IMG/VR virus record: IMGVR_UViG_2534681835_000039
DNA: 8,626 bases
Source: a virus
Lineage: Duplodnaviria; Heunggongvirae; Uroviricota; Caudoviricetes
Strand: one strand, 5' to 3'
Below, piece after piece: positions 3,001 through 8,626 of the stretch; position 1 is the stretch's first letter; every line of letters begins with the position of its first letter. Made by a program: the position numbers.

Positions 3001-6000
3001 TGAAATGCTTCTGTTCCATACTGACCTGCCGACAATATGTTCTTGTACACTTTGCCATACGAGGTATTGGCATGAGTATCTATGCCAAAGGTTTGACCAA
3101 CACCAGCGCCTTGAATGAAGTATCGTGCAGCAAATCCGATAATATTGTTATTATATACCTTGAAATTTGAAGCGGTGTGACCTTCGTCGGGTTCAATATC
3201 TATACCAGCTAATAGCGTATCACCTATGTAGTTTCCATGAATCTCAAACTGCCTAGTATCACTTCCGGCTGCAATACCCATCCTATTGGTTGTAATGATG
3301 GTGTTATGCCTTACCTTGAAATTTTTCGCGTTATAAACCAGGATGCCATCACCACGCTGCATCCCTACACCACCAATATTTTTGATATTACAATTTTGAA
3401 TTAACAGCCCATCCGTCTGTACATCGTAGTTTGCATAATCACCGAACCATATTCCTATGCCGCACTCACCGGATAGCATTGAAATTCCAATATCGTGAAC
3501 ATTCACGCCGTCTATAACGATATTGCTGCCACCGTACCCACGAATTCCTCCATCCAGGGTGCCTGTTATATCAACATCAATCACTTTGGCGTTGGAGATG
3601 TTAGCCATAAGTATCCCGGATTTCTCTTGCTGAGTTCCGCCATCAAATTGAAAGTTTAATGACCCGCTATGCATCACTTTATTACTTTTGTGGTTAATAG
3701 GTGAGCGAAGTTTTGAAACGAATCCGACGCCACCAAGTTTAACGCTAGGAGATTCAGAGTCTAATGCAGCGGATACAGCAGCATCGTTGAACTCTCCATC
3801 AATAGCACCCCATCCGCGAATGTCACCCTCTTCTCTCCACTGCTGAATTTTAATATGCTGATCCATCGATGGGATTAGAAGATATCCATTTGGATCCGCT
3901 AGCTCTTGTCTTAATTGGTCAGGGTCGTACTTCAACACATTAGGAAAATAAAACTGCTGCGCACCGTATGCATCATAAACAGCCATAGAATGGCCTTGCA
4001 CAGTTACGAACTTGGCAATCTGTCCGTTATATACCGGGTAACCAGCAGCGTTAATGATGATTGGTTGCGAAACAGGAACGTGAGAGCCATCTTCGTTCTC
4101 CACATAAACCTGAATCTGGTTTTCAGGGTTTACCGGGTCAGTGTCAATTTTTCCGATATAAATTTTGCCATTGGCAACCGCTTTAAAAGAACGCGCCATA
4201 GTGAAGAGTTGCGAAGGCATCGATACGATCACATTGGCTGTAATGTCTGTCATTTAATTTGCTCCAGATACAAGGAATCACCGAAGCATGGCTACGATGA
4301 ATTTTGGGCATAAAAAAACCCAGCCGAAGCTGGGTCGTTGCGTTGGTTATCTGTCAGTAGTTATGTACTGAAGGAGGTAATTCTTTATTCTTAAGTCTCA
4401 TCCATGCGGAAAGATTCGTTGGTCCGTCTGGCTCATTAATATCAACATCTCGTGTGTGATTGATTAAAACGTCTCTCGCCATTCCGATAACATACGAGAA
4501 CTCATGGCCATAGTCGTAGCATCTGCCGGAATAGTTCGATTGAATTTGTTTTAGCGCCAGATACAGTTCGCGGAATAATGCCTGTGAGCGGTTGGCATAA
4601 TCCCATAACCATACAAGGCTGTTTGCTTCTTTTGCAGAAAGCTCGTTGGTTTTCTTCTCTTGTTTGCCGATAAATTCACCTTCAAGCACTACCCTGTGGA
4701 TGTACTCTACGGCTTGCGGTATCTGAGATGCATCAAGCTCTTCAATACTTTCCACATTGAAACGCTGATGAATCATTGCATAAGCTTCTGGGTACATTAG
4801 ATGCTTTTTGCTGACTAGCATATTTACAGCATCACGAAGCGGAGTCCTGTCATCAACAGATGTTTTCTTACGTGCATTTTCTGCCTTTCCCTTTGTCCAG
4901 TAGTCATGCAGTACAGTAAAGCATTCTTCCTGGTACTGAATCAGTTTATCACGGATGTCAGCACGAACTTTCTCAGGGTTGATGCTGAACAGCCATCCAT
5001 TTAACTTCTTCAAAGGAAGGCAGAGTAGCTTACGAAGCTTCCCATCAGCGGCAACCATGTTCATATGAACACAGTTGAATTTGCTAATCTGCTTCATGAG
5101 TTTTGTTTGCTGCGTTGACCAGCTCATTCCAAGGTTTTCAACGATTGGCTTCATCGCAACATATGCAACTCCGGCAGCCATGGCGGTGATAATTTGCTGA
5201 CCGTTGAATGGTACATAAGAGGTGTTCACTGCTTCTAAAATTGCTATACTATTCATGTTGGTTTTTCTCCACGGATTTACTGACAACCGAAGCCCTGACT
5301 GTTCCCGCAGTTGGGGCTTCAACTTTACGCGCCAATGCGCCCTTCCTTCTTAAAGCTTTCCATTACTCTCTGATAAATCTCAGAGTTAACAGACCGACCA
5401 TTCTCTTCCGCCACCTTGCGGACCAAATCCAATACTTCTTTAGGCCACCGCAAATTGAACTGCGGCATCTTGCTCATTCCTTTCATATTCACCTCACAAT
5501 ATAGGTCCACCGTGGACCTATTGAGAATATAGTAGAGTGCTTCTATCATGTCAATACACTAACTTGGAGTGATGGCATGGCTAGAGATGATCCGCACTTT
5601 AACTTCCGTATGCCTATGGAAGTAAGGGAGAAATTAAAATTCAGGGCGGAGGCGAATGGGAGATCAATGAACTCCGAGTTGTTACAAATCGTCCAAGATG
5701 CTCTATCAAAACCATCGCCTGTGACTGGATATCGCGACGATGCAGAACGACTCGCTGATGAGCAGTCAGAGCTTGTTAAGAAGATGGTGTTTGATACGCT
5801 GAAGGATTTGTACAAAAAACCCACCTGAAGGTGGGTCCTATTTATTAGTCTTGCTTTGTTGATGGTATAAGAGATGCGTTTGCCTCTTTTGGCTTCAAGG
5901 TATACATCCCACCATTAAAAGGATCTACAGCAAGCCAACCAATTAACCCACCAAACACAAGGTTTCCACCAATATACCAGCCATTAGCATTGGCTTTGAT

Positions 6001-8626
6001 TGGCAGGGTAACTGGTTCGTACCCATCCTTTTCCATAGTGATCTGGTAGCTCTTTTTGCCAAAATAACTACCATCTGACTTGGCAAGAGTTACTCCTTGC
6101 GGGGTCTTACCTTGCGCAACAATCACGCCTGATTCGTCTTTTACCTTAAAGCTCGCACCGGAAGGATTGCTGTTCACTTGCACAAGCTGCGTTTCGTCAC
6201 CAACAATAGTTGCGCACCCAGATAACAATATAGCGCCAGCAACGACGCCAATAATCCTCTTCATATCAATTTCCATATTTAAAAAACCGGAAACATCCTA
6301 ATGACAAACCATTCAAATGTGAAGTAGGCAAAAGATGTTTACTTTTTTCATGGTATCCTGCTCAAAACTAAGGAGGTTGGCGTGAAGCAATTTCTTACTG
6401 TTATGTTCTTATTCATATCTTTTGGGGCTACAGCAGAGTGCTGGGTCGTTGGAGATATGCGCGGAATAAGCTATTCAGAACGAAATAATTTCCATCCGGA
6501 AGAAGATGGTTTTAGTGGAACATTCATCATTAAGACAAACGGTGAAGATGCCAGCATCACATATTCTGGGACAGATGCGGGCGGCATGGCTTACAAAGCA
6601 TTGTCTAAAAACTCCATCATAGGAATCGGCGCGAATGGCGAAACTCAACGCGTTATCGACTCATGGGTAATACATCCTACTGGAACAGTTTTAATGTCAA
6701 AAACCATTTCCGGTTATGGATTCAACCAAAGCTTTTGTTGGAAAAGTAAAAAGAAAATGTTAGCGATTGAATCCAATTTCCCATACGTTACTGCTGTGTT
6801 GCCTCAGTAGCAAACAGCGGTCTGATGGCATTCGCAGCGTTATTTATCGCTCTTTCATAGGCTGGTGTTCCTGCTTTGGTGTTTGCCAAACGAAGAAGCA
6901 TATTCCTTGCTGCTTTGGACTCATACAAGCGCATCATTGCACCAAAACCAGCCTCAAGCCCCATTGATACGCCAAGGGTCGCAGTTGCGCCAATCGTCCT
7001 TATCCTGTTGGCTTGCGATTGCCCTGTCTGAGTTACTACATTTGCGGTGTCTGACCTTGCTGTTTGCTGTAGAACTTCATGAAGAGCATCAAGCTCTTTT
7101 ATGTGCTTTCCAGAAAAAATAGTGTTGTAAATTTCACCGCCTGACTGAGATTTCAGCTTATTAACTTCAGTGATGAACTTGGCTGGAGAGTCCCCGGCCT
7201 TTTCCGCTATTTTGCTGACGTAAGCTGCACGCATAGCATCTTTCCCCTTATCATCCAGTGCGCTCCAGATTCGTTTCACGTCAGATGGTTTTCTGCTTAA
7301 TACAACGGTATTTATAAGTTCAGGACTGGCTTCACTGCTTGCCTTGTTGAGCTTGTTGGCAATGTTTTTATTAAGCACCTTATTATAAACGTTTGCATAA
7401 TCGGAATTTGCTTTAAGGTATTTTGCCGCGTCTGATGCACCGAGGTTTTTAGCAACTGCGTTACGAAGGTCTTTTGACATTGCATTCTCTACCATATTGG
7501 TAGCTGCTTTTGCCTGGTTGGGGAAGACCATAGCATCTCCCTGAACATTAGATCTAAATGCTGTTCTGTGCTGACGCAAGAGATCAAACGTAACATCCAA
7601 ATCAGTTGCAGGGTTTGCTAATTCTTCACGTAGGTTACGCAAGGATGTAAGCAGGCTTTGATTGGCAGACGTCCCAAGCCGTTCCTGTCTTGCGATCGCT
7701 GTATTCAGAGCATTCATGGTATTTGTGGTATCAACTGCGGCATTACCCATTTTATTGGTGACGTCATTGATAACAGCGCCAGCGGCATCCTTCCGCCCCC
7801 TTAACGTGGTGGTAAGAGATTTCACCACATCATCAGGGTTGTACTCACCAAAACGGTCAAAATAATTACTTACCAGCTTACTACGCGTTGCATATTGCTC
7901 CGCTCGCTTTGAGCCTGTCCCGAGCAAAGCCCCCTCGGCATCCTGAGTTAGGCCGCGAGTGAAAGCATTTTTCGGCGGGATAACATCAGATGTCATTGGT
8001 GTCACGCCCATCGATTCTGATGTGGCAATTTTCTTCGCCACTTCTGGCGCAATATCACCTTTTATAGCCGTTATTCCACGCCCTATTCCCTTTGCTGCTG
8101 CGGAAAGAACACCCTGAGCGGCAAGGTTAACTCCGGCATTTTTAGCTGCATTTTGTGCGAAATCGCCTTTCTGATTTGCGGCCTCTGCCAGTGATCCAAT
8201 AGCCATGCTTCCTGCCGTTCCAACTCCTGGAACTAAATACCCACCAATTGTTTCACCGGCTTGCGCGTAGGGGTCTGTCGGTCTGTCTACTGGACGATAA
8301 ACATCATCCAAAACCTTGGGTCCACCAAGCCCCTGACTGATTGCATTAATCAGACTTGCGCCGCCCTGCAATACGTCAAATGGTATGTTTACCAGACCAC
8401 GACCAGCCTGTTCTGCAATTTGCCCTGCACTTTGACCACCAGTGAGCCAATCGCCAGCTTGTTGCATCAATGATGGTTCTTCCCGTGTTGGTGCATTATT
8501 GGCCTGATTAACTGTTTGTTGCTGAACAGCCTGACCAGCAAAATACTCATCAATGGCGGTGCCAATATCTTCGGTGCTCGTACCATCAGGAAAGGTAAAT
8601 GTCTTACCGTTTGCAGTTACTTTCAT

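What the first reader, a model, noticed from the sequence alone, without database searches (positions are those of the whole stretch)
5845..6810. Divergent lipoprotein plus exported-protein pair at the variable gp16-immI locus: candidate undescribed superinfection-exclusion or defence module
In P22 the interval between gene 16 and mnt carries sieA and small accessory ORFs (recalled), and this interval is a known variable cargo site in P22-like phages. Here it holds two divergent genes from a ~105-bp intergenic region (6265-6381): a lipoprotein (L-S-G-C lipobox, Gly-rich mature domain) and a 142-aa signal-peptide protein with two cysteines. Both are envelope-targeted, neither resembles a virion or replication protein, and neither is recognisable to me as a known family. 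Prophage-encoded envelope lipoproteins (Cor of phi80/N15, Llp of T5, Bor of lambda) are known receptor blockers or exclusion factors, so an entry-blocking function is plausible. The plus-strand gene has an extended -10-like TGgTATCCT (6350-6358) and a strong SD, suggesting expression in the lysogen.
Basis: partly seen in the sequence, partly recalled or inferred. Interest (0 to 1): 0.7.

Follow-up and report, generated by a model that had tools for sequence, protein, structure and literature searches.

The report
Two independent prophage cargo genes, one broken
The two divergent genes are real but are not a pair: one is an intact, widely conserved outer-membrane-type lipoprotein that temperate phages repeatedly carry next to their DNA-injection genes, and the other is a frameshifted copy of a relative of the phage 434 "Hex" exclusion protein sitting in the slot where phage P22 keeps its sieA exclusion gene.

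Summary
The window is a roughly 9-kb remnant of a P22-like prophage at argW in E. coli O111:H8. It matches strain 8E at 100% identity.

**Status of the two genes.** Positions 5845-6810 lie in the published variable "ant moron" between gene 16 and mnt. Both ORFs are real genes, but they assort independently. Of 5,426 complete E. coli genomes, 123 carry the lipoprotein gene, 143 carry the other gene, and 45 carry both side by side.

**Gene 1 (5845-6264, minus strand).**
- It is intact and equals ε34 gp15 (phrog_6823). It has an LSGC lipobox.
- Its fold is a PEGA/transthyretin-like β-sandwich plus a conserved Gly-rich hydrophobic segment.
- dN/dS against ε34 is 0.04.
- Relatives occur in at least 303 proteobacterial species.
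- Relatives also sit as cargo in the HK97 gp15 slot and between λ-type I and J.
- The identical protein is strongly transcribed from the uninduced Gally prophage of strain LF82.

**Gene 2 (6382-6810, plus strand).**
- It carries an 8-bp deletion that replaces the conserved C-terminus, including the near-invariant last Cys. The native protein is 129 aa.
- It belongs to the phage 434 Hex family (phrog_2651), a signal-peptide protein modelled as a small β-barrel (pLDDT 94.8).
- It is fused to the same leader, ribosome-binding site and GTG start as P22 sieA.

**Verdict.** An exclusion role is plausible for both genes but untested. The "undescribed two-gene module" reading is not supported.

The parts
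5845..6264 (-). Intact lipoprotein gene (139 aa; an upstream in-frame ATG at 6276 would give 143 aa). Equals ε34 gp15, Gally GALLYPH_14 and WP_000821222.1; phrog_6823.
6214..6264 (-). Signal peptide plus lipobox L-S-G-C. The Cys17 codon is 6214-6216. The +2 residue is Ala, so the E. coli Lol rule predicts outer-membrane sorting (inference).
   Evidence: Read directly from the sequence. The lipobox and Cys are invariant in 40 homologues.
5814..5838 (.). Bidirectional intrinsic terminator between mnt and the lipoprotein gene. On the minus strand it reads GGACCCACC-UUCA-GGUGGGUUU followed by a U run.
   Evidence: -14.5 kcal/mol, z = -2.2. Annotated as a Rho-independent terminator in ε34.
6295..6323 (-). 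Promoter-like site for the lipoprotein gene (TTCACA, 17-nt spacer, TAGGAT; 9 of 12 matches).
   Evidence: This is a consensus match only; the number of such sites in the region is no higher than in shuffled sequence. The stretch is shared with ε34 but not with Gally.
6351..6384 (+). Conserved 'sieA-slot' expression cassette: extended -10-like TGGTATCCT (6351-6359), leader, ribosome-binding site AAGGAGG (6370-6376) and GTG start (6382-6384).
   Evidence: The sequence is essentially invariant upstream of five unrelated cargo genes in other P22-like phages and prophages: P22 sieA, ε34 gene 14, Emek orf129, an ET826 75-aa membrane protein and a DLL7555 YobH-family protein (alignment A7). About 97 further E. 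coli genomes match only these roughly 40 nt.
6382..6810 (+). Frameshifted Hex-family gene (phrog_2651). Signal peptide codons are 6382-6435 and the Cys20 codon is 6439-6441. The native reading frame is lost after the 8-bp deletion at 6714/6715. The native stop codon would be TAG at 6761-6763.
   Evidence: Homology to 434 Hex. Family alignments with invariant C20 and G123 and near-invariant W95 and C129.
6715..6720 (+). Remaining copy of the TATGGA direct repeat that flanks the 8-bp deletion (TATGGAAA missing). The pattern fits slipped-strand deletion.
   Evidence: Alignment A4. Only 2 of 240 matching E. coli genomes are at least 99% identical to this allele.
5577..5828 (+). mnt, the flanking gene that marks the immI side of the cargo site.
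   Evidence: Pfam Arc plus Repressor_Mnt.
6788..8626 (-). Gene 16 homologue (ejection/DNA-transfer protein), the other flank. Its 3' end is overlapped by the frameshift extension of the Hex-like ORF.
   Evidence: phrog_770 E=3.6e-278; RefSeq name 'P22-gp16 family phage DNA ejection protein'.

Best explanation
Positions 5845-6810 hold two separate, horizontally shuffled cargo genes (morons) of the P22-type "ant moron", inside a decayed prophage.

**(1) The minus-strand gene.**
- It encodes an intact lipoprotein with its own terminator and a promoter-like site. The Lol sorting rule predicts an outer-membrane location (inference).
- Its fold is a PEGA/transthyretin-like β-sandwich with an invariant Gly-rich hydrophobic segment.
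- It belongs to an old, widespread proteobacterial lipoprotein family. Temperate enterobacterial phages have repeatedly captured this family and placed it beside their DNA-delivery genes.
- Inferred function: when expressed from the prophage it alters the periplasmic face of the outer membrane. The most likely benefit is blocking entry or DNA delivery of superinfecting phages. Protection of the host envelope under stress is the main alternative.

**(2) The plus-strand gene.**
- It is a member of the phage 434 Hex family. The precursor is 129 aa and is exported by a Sec signal peptide. The mature protein is a soluble β-barrel of about 110 residues, probably closed by a disulfide between Cys2 of the mature protein and the C-terminal Cys (inferred).
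- It has been swapped precisely at the start codon into the sieA expression cassette. Intact copies should therefore be made in lysogens, and they most likely act in the periplasm as a heterologous-exclusion factor.
- In this window an 8-bp deletion destroys the conserved C-terminal strand and the Cys, so this copy is almost certainly non-functional.

**What is shown and what is inferred.**
- Shown: gene identities, the frameshift, the folds, the shared cassette, independent assortment, and transcription of the identical lipoprotein coding sequence in LF82.
- Inferred: subcellular locations, the disulfide, and any exclusion activity.
For: **Context**
- The window is 100% identical to E. coli O111:H8 strain 8E, where the prophage is cut within gene 20.
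- The immI region is complete: mnt, arc, ant and sar.
- The region is described in the literature as a rapidly changing moron (PMC2629481).

**Independence of the two genes**
- Counts in complete E. coli genomes.
- Alternative neighbours in other phages.

**Lipoprotein**
- Family conservation and invariant motifs; purifying selection; fold.
- Relatives 68-78% identical lie in three tail-cluster positions. One is between the tail-assembly chaperone T and the tape-measure gene in HK97-like E. coli prophages. One is just upstream of the tape-measure gene in Proteus prophages. One is between I and J in λ-type tail clusters.
- The first of these positions is the slot of the HK97 gp15 exclusion moron (PMC3594210).
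- At least 303 species carry relatives 50-60% identical across several proteobacterial classes, with no conserved neighbour. A non-prophage copy exists in Enterobacter.
- LF82_139 (identical protein) reaches log2(fpkm+5) of about 10-11 in medium and in macrophages. The adjacent late gene LF82_137 stays at about 3.7-4.1. In stationary LB LF82_139 is only 4.8-6.2 (PMC9928086 tables S1 and S4).
- Precedents exist: lipoprotein genes inside structural gene clusters of coliphages cause receptor-specific exclusion (Lpp021, Lpp010; PMC11893012).

**Hex-like gene**
- Frameshift; pseudogene annotation.
- Homology to 434 Hex, Sf6 gp38, HK633, HK446 and Sf101, all lying immediately downstream of cI.
- 91 clusters at 50% identity share the same architecture.
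- The leader and start codon are shared with sieA, and sieA upstream DNA is functional.
- All alternative cargos in this cassette begin with a hydrophobic export or membrane segment. SieA itself is an inner-membrane protein.
- Tandem diverged Hex paralogues occupy the same slot in another prophage.
Against: - No experiment exists on either protein.
- The lipoprotein's fold is generic, and its low-confidence Gly-rich segment is uninterpreted.
- Its wide chromosomal distribution argues for a general envelope function rather than an anti-phage one.
- The LF82 authors scored Gally as having no morons in LB, where this gene was 3.3 times the local background and below their 5-fold cut-off.
- Gally's upstream DNA differs from the window's, so the expression data do not test this promoter.
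- The only biochemical work on Hex assigns it a cytoplasmic role, inhibition of RecA-stimulated repressor cleavage (PMC3564112). That conflicts with a periplasmic exclusion mechanism.
- The original Hex exclusion phenotype is known to me only through that paper's citation.
- The prophage here is a remnant, so selection on these copies in this strain is unknown.
Confidence: 0.55

Rival explanations
1. One reading: the lipoprotein and the exported protein form one two-gene superinfection-exclusion or defence module that works together from a shared divergent promoter region.
For: The genes are adjacent, divergent and both envelope-targeted. Forty-five E. coli genomes, including apparently complete prophages such as the one in strain A35, carry both with an intact second gene.
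Against: Most occurrences are single: 123 and 143 genomes against 45 with both. ε34 and Gally pair the lipoprotein with unrelated genes, and Emek and the L028 locus carry the Hex-like gene without it. The sequence blocks end between the two genes. Relatives of each gene sit alone in quite different phage slots. There are no PADLOC hits.
Confidence: 0.05
2. The lipoprotein is a lysogenic-conversion factor for host fitness, for example envelope robustness, serum or macrophage stress, or adhesion. It would work like λ Bor rather than as an anti-phage factor.
For: The family is conserved at 50-60% identity across many non-prophage chromosomes in several proteobacterial classes. The identical gene in LF82 is about 14-fold higher in macrophages than in LB (log2FC 3.84, q=1.4e-31) and is high in cell-culture medium. 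There is no similarity to known exclusion lipoproteins beyond the signal peptide.
Against: Deleting the whole Gally prophage did not change LF82 survival in macrophages (PMC9928086). In phages the gene repeatedly sits next to DNA-delivery genes, in or beside slots that hold proven exclusion genes.
Confidence: 0.3
3. The Hex-family protein acts in the cytoplasm as a 'repressor protection protein'. It would inhibit RecA-stimulated autocleavage of the prophage repressor and so stabilise lysogeny, as published for 434 Hex.
For: PMC3564112 reports three results. hex- lysogens induce about 30-fold more, and the effect is RecA-dependent. A fragment (sHex) partly complements the defect. The same fragment blocks cleavage of the 434 and P22 repressors in vitro. 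A P22-like prophage would have a P22-type C2 repressor.
Against: Every family member examined has an N-terminal Sec-type signal sequence. All have the invariant Cys at mature position 2, and nearly all the C-terminal Cys, a pairing expected to form a disulfide only outside the cytoplasm. By my count the N-terminus of sHex (Glu43 of the 158-aa ORF) coincides with the predicted signal-peptidase site. Full-length Hex was toxic when over-produced. In P22-like phages the gene sits in the sieA slot, not beside the repressor.
Confidence: 0.15
4. In this genome the whole region is inert debris. The prophage is a remnant, one gene is already broken, and the lipoprotein gene is merely not yet mutated.
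For: The prophage is truncated in gene 20. The Hex-like gene is frameshifted. The acyltransferase reading frame is split.
Against: The lipoprotein ORF is intact and identical at the protein level to the copy in the active phage Gally. The immI genes and the tailspike gene are also intact. The frameshift is rare and therefore recent: only 2 genomes are at least 99% identical to this allele.
Confidence: 0.15

Closest known systems
Phage 434 Hex ('heterologous exclusion' / 'repressor protection protein'), Sf6 gp38 and homologues; phrog_2651
   Same: True homologue of the plus-strand gene: 29% identity over the full length (pairwise E=3e-13), and both proteins hit phrog_2651 at about 1e-58 to 1e-60. 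The size is the same, as are the signal peptide, the mature N-terminus ECW… and the C-terminal FVGxxxGxC. Both are accessory genes placed where prophage-expressed genes sit.
   Different: In 434, Sf6, HK633, HK446 and Sf101 the gene lies directly downstream of cI and is transcribed from PRM. Here it lies in the sieA slot, behind the sieA leader and convergent with gene 16. The window copy is frameshifted and lacks the conserved C-terminus. The published Hex mechanism is cytoplasmic, which does not fit the predicted export.
P22 SieA (phrog_7745), an inner-membrane blocker of DNA injection
   Same: Same genomic slot, same orientation, and the same roughly 34-nt leader, ribosome-binding site and GTG start as the plus-strand gene. 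Both are envelope-targeted and belong to the prophage-expressed class.
   Different: There is no sequence relationship; the PHROG families differ. SieA is a multi-pass inner-membrane protein (PMC10883804). The Hex-like protein is a small exported β-barrel with no membrane-spanning segment after the signal peptide.
Salmonella phage ε34 gene 15 product (also Gally GALLYPH_14; phrog_6823)
   Same: Same protein as the minus-strand gene: 98% identical to ε34 gp15 and 100% identical to the Gally product. It has the same position next to mnt and the same terminator.
   Different: Nothing of substance differs. [quoted passage not shown] Its function is still unknown.
HK97 gp15 moron (inner-membrane superinfection-exclusion protein)
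   Same: [quoted passage not shown] Both are small envelope proteins with bacterial chromosomal homologues.
   Different: From PMC3594210, gp15 is a small YebO-like inner-membrane protein and not a lipoprotein. Sequence relatedness was not tested here, because the gp15 sequence was not fetched.
Exclusion lipoproteins Cor (φ80/N15), Llp (T5), and Lpp021/Lpp010 (mEp phages)
   Same: These are phage-encoded lipoproteins with a lipobox. They are encoded inside or beside structural gene clusters and act at the outer membrane (PMC3594210, PMC11893012).
   Different: Similarity to the Cor PHROG is limited to the 20-residue signal peptide (E=0.0036). tblastn against phage records found no lipoprotein relatives other than ε34, Gally and 720R6. 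The PEGA-like fold and the Gly-rich segment are not known features of those proteins. Receptor blocking is untested.

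Membership tests
Phage 434 Hex family (phrog_2651) | Sequence homology to Hex and to the family profile over the whole length | tested here: met
   Window ORF against phrog_2651: E=6e-50, residues 14-114. 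Intact allele P0124: E=1.7e-60. 434 Hex: E=1.4e-58. BLASTP of P0124 against Hex: 29% identity, E=3e-13.
Phage 434 Hex family (phrog_2651) | N-terminal Sec signal peptide followed by an invariant Cys at mature position 2 | tested here: met
   Window sequence reads …FGATA|ECWVVG. C20 is invariant in 53 and in 74 aligned members.
Phage 434 Hex family (phrog_2651) | Conserved C-terminal strand FVGxxxGxC, with invariant Gly and near-invariant terminal Cys | tested here: not met
   The 8-bp deletion replaces residues 114-129. Intact alleles in A35 and Emek do have this feature. The window copy is therefore a disrupted member.
Phage 434 Hex family (phrog_2651) | Exclusion of heterologous phage and/or stabilisation of lysogeny | not testable with these tools
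   These phenotypes are known only for 434 Hex (PMC3564112).
P22 SieA family (phrog_7745) | Sequence homology to SieA; multi-pass inner-membrane protein | tested here: not met
   P22 SieA hits phrog_7745 only. Neither window protein hits it.
P22 SieA family (phrog_7745) | Location convergent with the 3' end of gene 16, behind the PsieA leader and GTG start | tested here: met
   This is a shared expression site and does not establish family membership.
Moron (independently expressed cargo inserted in a phage operon; Juhala/Hendrix sense) | Present or absent among otherwise syntenic relatives | tested here: met
   Different cargo genes occupy this interval in P22, ε34, Emek, Gally, ET826, DLL7555 and L025. 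See also PMC2629481.
Moron (independently expressed cargo inserted in a phage operon; Juhala/Hendrix sense) | Own promoter and terminator | tested here: inconclusive
   The terminator is convincing. The promoters are consensus matches only, supported for the plus-strand gene by conservation with the sieA upstream region.
Moron (independently expressed cargo inserted in a phage operon; Juhala/Hendrix sense) | Transcribed from the repressed prophage | tested here: inconclusive
   The identical lipoprotein coding sequence in LF82/Gally is transcribed 60- to 130-fold above the neighbouring late gene in several conditions. However, it lies behind different upstream DNA. There are no data for the Hex-like gene.
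PEGA domain (Pfam PF08308) | Score at or above the Pfam gathering threshold | tested here: not met
   17.5 bits against a cut-off of 20.8. Nine of 40 homologues give weak hits. The fold is compatible: a transthyretin/CarboxypepD_reg-like β-sandwich.
Cor/Llp-type receptor-blocking exclusion lipoproteins | Sequence homology beyond the signal peptide | tested here: not met
   The match to phrog_1119 (Cor) is restricted to residues 5-24, E=0.0036.
Cor/Llp-type receptor-blocking exclusion lipoproteins | Lipobox, with outer-membrane sorting | tested here: inconclusive
   The LSGC lipobox is present. Ala at +2 predicts outer-membrane sorting by the Lol rule, but this is a prediction only.
Cor/Llp-type receptor-blocking exclusion lipoproteins | Binds or inactivates an outer-membrane phage receptor | not testable with these tools
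   Needs adsorption and plating assays.
Known anti-phage defence systems (PADLOC-DB 2.0) | Match to any defence protein model | tested here: not met
   No hits at E up to 1 for either protein.

The most novel reading that the evidence does not exclude
The site next to the ejection-protein gene 16 may be a plug-and-play expression socket. One fixed leader, ribosome-binding site and GTG start would be used by P22-like phages to express interchangeable envelope-targeted exclusion proteins.

Two uncharacterised classes would be delivered at this site:
- **Hex-family barrels in the socket.** Soluble periplasmic β-barrels that block DNA delivery from outside the cytoplasm. This would contradict the published cytoplasmic RecA mechanism for 434 Hex.
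- **The PEGA-like lipoprotein beside it.** Borrowed from an ancient bacterial family, and also planted in the HK97 gp15 slot and at the λ I/J junction. It would be a new outer-membrane or periplasmic superinfection-exclusion factor acting on both short-tailed and long-tailed phages.
Probability: 0.2. Interest if true: 0.7.

Novelty: new member of a known kind. Interest (0 to 1): 0.4.

Why it matters
**The region as it stands.** It is ordinary in kind. It is accessory cargo in a site already known to be variable, inside a decayed prophage, and one of the two genes is dead.

**Three testable leads**
1. The phage 434 Hex family looks like an exported, disulfide-closed β-barrel, and it is used in the sieA slot of P22-like phages. 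This gives a concrete way to revisit how Hex excludes P22. It also raises the question of whether the reported RecA/repressor effect is direct.
2. A single conserved leader and start codon drives at least six unrelated envelope-targeted cargo genes beside gene 16. That makes the slot a convenient catalogue of candidate injection blockers.
3. The lipoprotein family is widespread in bacteria and completely uncharacterised. Phages have recruited it again and again next to their tape-measure, J and ejection-protein genes. It is also one of the most strongly transcribed genes of the Gally prophage outside LB.

**The simplest experiment.** Clone each gene and plate a phage panel. This is quick and would settle most of the open points.

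Tried and rejected
**Searches with no informative hit**
- Pfam, NCBIfam and PADLOC scans of both proteins gave only a sub-threshold PEGA hit and a weak LEPBI_I2678 match.
- Sequence searches of the PDB gave nothing meaningful.
- The BFVD search with the lipoprotein model found one unnamed homologue and generic PEGA-like domains.
- The afdb50 library was unavailable.
- The JGI label 'YceK' on some homologues carries no supporting Pfam hit in that table. I suspect it rests on lipobox similarity, did not test this, and disregarded it.

**Ideas tested and dropped**
- An outer-membrane β-barrel reading of the Hex-like protein was rejected. The mature protein is about 110 mostly polar residues, the strands are 6-9 residues long, and the protein ends in Cys rather than an aromatic residue.
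- A conserved operon partner for the lipoprotein was sought in 80 loci from different species. None was found; neighbours are unrelated housekeeping genes, or phage tail genes in the prophage contexts.
- Co-occurrence of the two genes was tested and rejected.

**Literature**
- Accession numbers and locus tags returned no papers.
- The primary HK97 gp15 paper (PMC3430355) is not held, so its slot was taken from the authors' review.
- The LF82 expression data cannot be transferred to this window's promoter, because the upstream DNA differs.

Full report
**What the window is.** The 8,626 bases carry these genes in order:
- an IntS-type integrase
- a low-GC acyltransferase gene
- a P22-type tailspike gene
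- ant, the sar antisense RNA (Rfam RF00262, 95.6 bits), arc and mnt
- the two genes of the finding
- a gene 16 (ejection protein) homologue

Positions 5830-6820 are 100% identical to E. coli O111:H8 strain 8E. In that genome the element lies beside tRNA-Arg and yfdC. It ends inside gene 20: only the last 125 codons remain, followed by csc and dsd host genes. It is therefore a prophage remnant. The same arrangement with a full set of virion genes exists at torT in strain A35.

The minus-strand ORF matches phrog_6823 at E=6.8e-86. The plus-strand ORF matches phrog_2651 at E=6e-50.

The lipoprotein's likely start is ATG 6264, giving 139 aa. This is the start annotated in ε34 and in RefSeq. Its signal peptide ends in the lipobox L-S-G-C.

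The plus-strand ORF has a standard signal peptide, …FGATA|ECW. However, aligning the DNA with strain A35 and phage Emek shows an 8-bp deletion (TATGGAAA) between two TATGGA repeats at window 6714/6715.
- The frame shifts at residue 114.
- The native end NMDSTKAFVGKVKRKC is replaced by 29 unrelated residues that read into gene 16.
- The native protein is 129 aa.
- RefSeq calls this copy a frameshifted pseudogene.
- Only 2 of the 240 matching E. coli genomes are at least 99% identical to this allele, so the lesion is recent.

**Are the two genes a unit?** No. Among 5,426 complete E. coli genomes, 123 have the lipoprotein gene, 143 have the other gene at 80% coverage or more, and 45 have both adjacent.

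Other phages show other combinations:

| Phage or locus | Arrangement |
|---|---|
| ε34 | lipoprotein paired with an hkcB-like gene |
| Gally | lipoprotein paired with an unrelated 171-aa gene |
| Emek | Hex-like gene, no lipoprotein |
| L028 and L029 (metagenome contigs) | mnt, a Rap1a-family gene, Hex-like gene, gene 16 |

The blocks of nucleotide similarity end between the two genes. The ε34 genome paper had already described this interval as the "ant moron", with ten gene arrangements in sixteen genomes. [quoted passage not shown]

**The plus-strand gene is a Hex-family gene in the sieA socket.** A tblastn search of phage records found close copies in Emek and ST-35. It also found full-length matches at 29% identity to the gene immediately downstream of the cI repressor in phage 434, Sf6 (gene 38), HK633, HK446, Sf101 and others.

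The 434 gene is hex. It is annotated as "repressor protection protein". 434 Hex and the intact allele P0124 both hit phrog_2651 at about 1e-58 to 1e-60 and align end to end.

An exhaustive HMMER search found 91 clusters at 50% identity, nearly all 120-140 aa. Aligned members share a signal peptide. Cys at mature position 2 is invariant, as is a Gly in the C-terminal FVGxxxGxC. A Trp (ETW) and the terminal Cys are near-invariant.

The window allele has lost the last strand and the Cys.

**The shared expression cassette.** P22 sieA occupies the same place and orientation, convergent with the end of gene 16. Aligning the upstream regions shows that TGGTATCCTG..CAAAACTAAGGAGGTTGG(C/T)GTG (window 6351-6384) is essentially invariant in front of six different cargo genes:
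- P22 sieA
- ε34 gene 14
- Emek orf129
- the window's gene
- a 75-aa two-helix membrane protein in strain ET826
- a YobH-family protein in strain DLL7555

All six start at the same GTG. The true start of the window's gene is therefore GTG 6382, not the ATG 6403 used by RefSeq.

About 97 further E. coli genomes match only this roughly 40-nt stretch. Leavitt et al. showed that sieA with 85 bp of upstream DNA gives more than 10^6-fold exclusion from a single chromosomal copy (PMC10883804). The window matches P22 over about the last 50 of those bases.

Every cargo read here begins with a hydrophobic export or membrane segment, and SieA itself is an inner-membrane protein. One prophage carries two diverged Hex paralogues in tandem in this slot.

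**What is known about Hex.** According to Shkilnyj et al. (PMC3564112), hex was named for heterologous exclusion of P22 by λimm434 lysogens of Salmonella. Their own work showed three things:
- hex- lysogens induce about 30-fold more, and the effect is RecA-dependent
- a fragment (sHex) partly complements the defect
- sHex inhibits RecA-stimulated cleavage of the 434 and P22 repressors in vitro

Two details fit export rather than a cytoplasmic role. Full-length Hex was toxic when over-produced. By my count, sHex begins at Glu43 of their 158-aa ORF, which is the first residue after the predicted signal peptide (MIRIAALLSILLTTSANS|ECW). I therefore favour a periplasmic exclusion function and keep the repressor-protection model as a rival.

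**The lipoprotein.** The word-index protein search returned 728 relatives.

*Conservation and fold.*
- An alignment of 40 relatives shows invariant features: the lipobox Cys, the motif ATIVG, a β-rich core, and the segment NGWYIGGN..FGGLIGWL.VDPFNGGMY.
- The AlphaFold model (pLDDT 77.6) is a β-sandwich at residues 25-93 plus a hairpin at 121-131.
- The Gly-rich hydrophobic segment at 97-114 has low confidence.
- The Pfam PEGA hit is just below threshold.

*Selection.* The window copy differs from ε34 at dS 0.23 but dN 0.009, giving dN/dS 0.04. The three amino-acid changes all lie in the signal peptide.

*Genomic contexts.*

| Relative | Identity to window | Context |
|---|---|---|
| P0061 | 68% | between tail-assembly chaperone T and the tape-measure gene in HK97-like E. 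coli prophages |
| P0071 | 71% | just upstream of the tape-measure gene in Proteus prophages |
| P0010 | 78% | between I and J in a λ-type tail cluster |
| P0029 | 81% | ordinary chromosomal locus in Enterobacter |

The P0061 position is exactly the slot of the HK97 gp15 exclusion moron (PMC3594210).

A scan of one genome per species found relatives in at least 303 species. The best 80 were examined. They span Gamma-, Beta-, Zeta- and Deltaproteobacteria at 50-60% identity. No neighbour is conserved across them.

This is therefore an old bacterial envelope lipoprotein that enterobacterial temperate phages have captured several times. Each time they placed it beside genes for DNA delivery.

*Expression.* Phage Gally of E. 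coli LF82 encodes the identical protein. Supplementary tables of Misson et al. (PMC9928086) give these values of log2(fpkm+5):

| Gene | Stationary LB | Medium, 1 h and 6 h | Inside macrophages, 1 h | Inside macrophages, 6 h |
|---|---|---|---|---|
| LF82_139 (lipoprotein) | 6.2 and 4.8 | 9.8-10.5 | 11.0 | 9.4-9.5 |
| LF82_137 (adjacent gene 16 homologue) | 3.6-4.1 in every condition | | | |

The gene is thus transcribed on its own from an uninduced prophage, and the level depends on conditions. In LB it was 3.3 times the local background. That is below the authors' 5-fold cut-off, which is why they reported no morons in Gally.

There is a caveat. Nucleotide similarity between Gally and the window stops about 10 bp upstream of the start codon. 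The window's own promoter is a 9/12 consensus match at 6323-6295 and remains untested. The terminator downstream is convincing and is annotated in ε34.

**Most likely mechanism.**

*Hex-like gene.* Intact alleles are probably made in lysogens from the sieA-type leader and exported. There they would interfere with an incoming phage in the periplasm. The window allele is dead.

*Lipoprotein.* The Lol rule predicts an outer-membrane anchor, because the +2 residue is Ala. The sandwich would face the periplasm, and the Gly-rich segment could mediate membrane contact or self-association.

Two things support an entry or delivery block as the most likely benefit to the phage. Its repeated placement in or beside proven exclusion slots is one. 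The other is the precedent of exclusion lipoproteins in coliphage structural clusters (Cor, Llp, Lpp021/Lpp010; PMC11893012).

Two things keep a host-fitness role as a serious alternative: its wide chromosomal distribution and its induction in macrophages. None of these functions has been tested.

**Comparison with what is known, and novelty.**
- The site, its variability and ε34 gene 15 are all in the literature.
- The Hex family has a studied prototype.
- What I could not find in the literature searched is threefold. The first is the link between the sieA-slot gene and 434 Hex. The second is the shared leader and start cassette with swappable cargo. The third is the recurrence of the lipoprotein family in the HK97 gp15 slot and at the λ I/J junction. 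No paper mentions the relevant accessions.

I file the finding as new members of a known kind, namely prophage accessory cargo of the exclusion type. It is not a new system.

**Verdict.** Interest is moderate at 0.4. The region is ordinary in kind and one gene is broken here, but it yields three cheap, specific experiments.

Noticed in passing
window 6351-6384; L021:3409-3443 (P22), L001, L002, L022, L023: A leader of about 34 nt, with ribosome-binding site and GTG start, is essentially invariant in front of six unrelated cargo genes next to gene 16, including P22 sieA. About 97 further E. coli genomes match only this stretch. It looks like a fixed expression socket with exchangeable cargo.
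   Followed up: partly
L006:2501-2905 (phage 434 hex): 434 Hex has a clear Sec signal peptide (MIRIAALLSILLTTSANS|ECW) and the family's N- and C-terminal Cys pair. The published active fragment sHex starts at Glu43 of the 158-aa ORF, which by my count is the predicted signal-peptidase site. Over-production of full-length Hex was toxic. All this sits awkwardly with the proposed cytoplasmic RecA/repressor mechanism.
   Followed up: partly
LF82 / phage Gally, L024:4501-4920 (GALLYPH_14 = LF82_139) and L024:3881-4396 (GALLYPH_13): The paper on LF82 prophages states that Gally has no morons. Its own tables show GALLYPH_14 (the lipoprotein) and GALLYPH_13 (the gene in the sieA position) transcribed far above the neighbouring late genes in medium and in macrophages, and at 3.3 and 4.5 times background in LB.
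   Followed up: yes
L025:3359-4164; L028:459-1199: One P22-like prophage has two diverged Hex-family paralogues in tandem beside gene 16. Another has a Rap1a-family gene (a type VI amidase-effector immunity family, Pfam E=9.7e-15) between mnt and the Hex-like gene. Both observations hint at periplasmic 'immunity-like' cargo.
   Followed up: partly
window 6382 against 6403: RefSeq starts this gene family at an internal ATG (122 aa, WP_001334102.1). Conservation of the GTG start across different cargo genes indicates the 129-aa form, which includes the positively charged start of the signal peptide.
   Followed up: yes
protein P0122 (134 aa, cluster of 642 sequences): A very common E. coli allele of the Hex-like protein diverges after …TISGY into an unrelated tail (RRVKSPNAGTNQHW…). 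The break lies at almost the same point as the window's frameshift, which suggests a second frequent disruption or junction there.
   Followed up: no
window 1206-2186: The acyltransferase (Acyl_transf_3) reading frame is split into a 57-aa and a 230-aa ORF. RefSeq annotates a shortened 267-aa protein. GC content is only 30-35%, against about 45% elsewhere. This is probably a damaged O-antigen acetyltransferase conversion gene.
   Followed up: no
window 5257-5324 (+): The sar antisense RNA (Rfam RF00262, 95.6 bits) is present, so the immI region (mnt, arc, sar, ant) looks complete even though the prophage is a remnant.
   Followed up: yes
beyond the window: L005:9797-10174: The fragment that RefSeq names 'acyltransferase, incomplete' next to gene 16 in strain 8E is in fact the last 125 codons of ejection-protein gene 20 (100% identical to A35 gp20 residues 347-471). 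It marks the deletion end-point of the prophage.
   Followed up: yes
L030-L109 (80 species): The lipoprotein family keeps 50-60% identity from Enterobacterales to Halomonadaceae, Pasteurellaceae, Betaproteobacteria, Zetaproteobacteria and Deltaproteobacteria. It is always a stand-alone gene without a conserved neighbour. No Pfam model reaches threshold and no study of it was found.
   Followed up: partly
window 4354-5322 (-): The mechanical ORF for ant starts at a TTG and is 322 aa. The annotated Ant in the matching genomes is 300 aa (903 nt), so the real start is further downstream.
   Followed up: no
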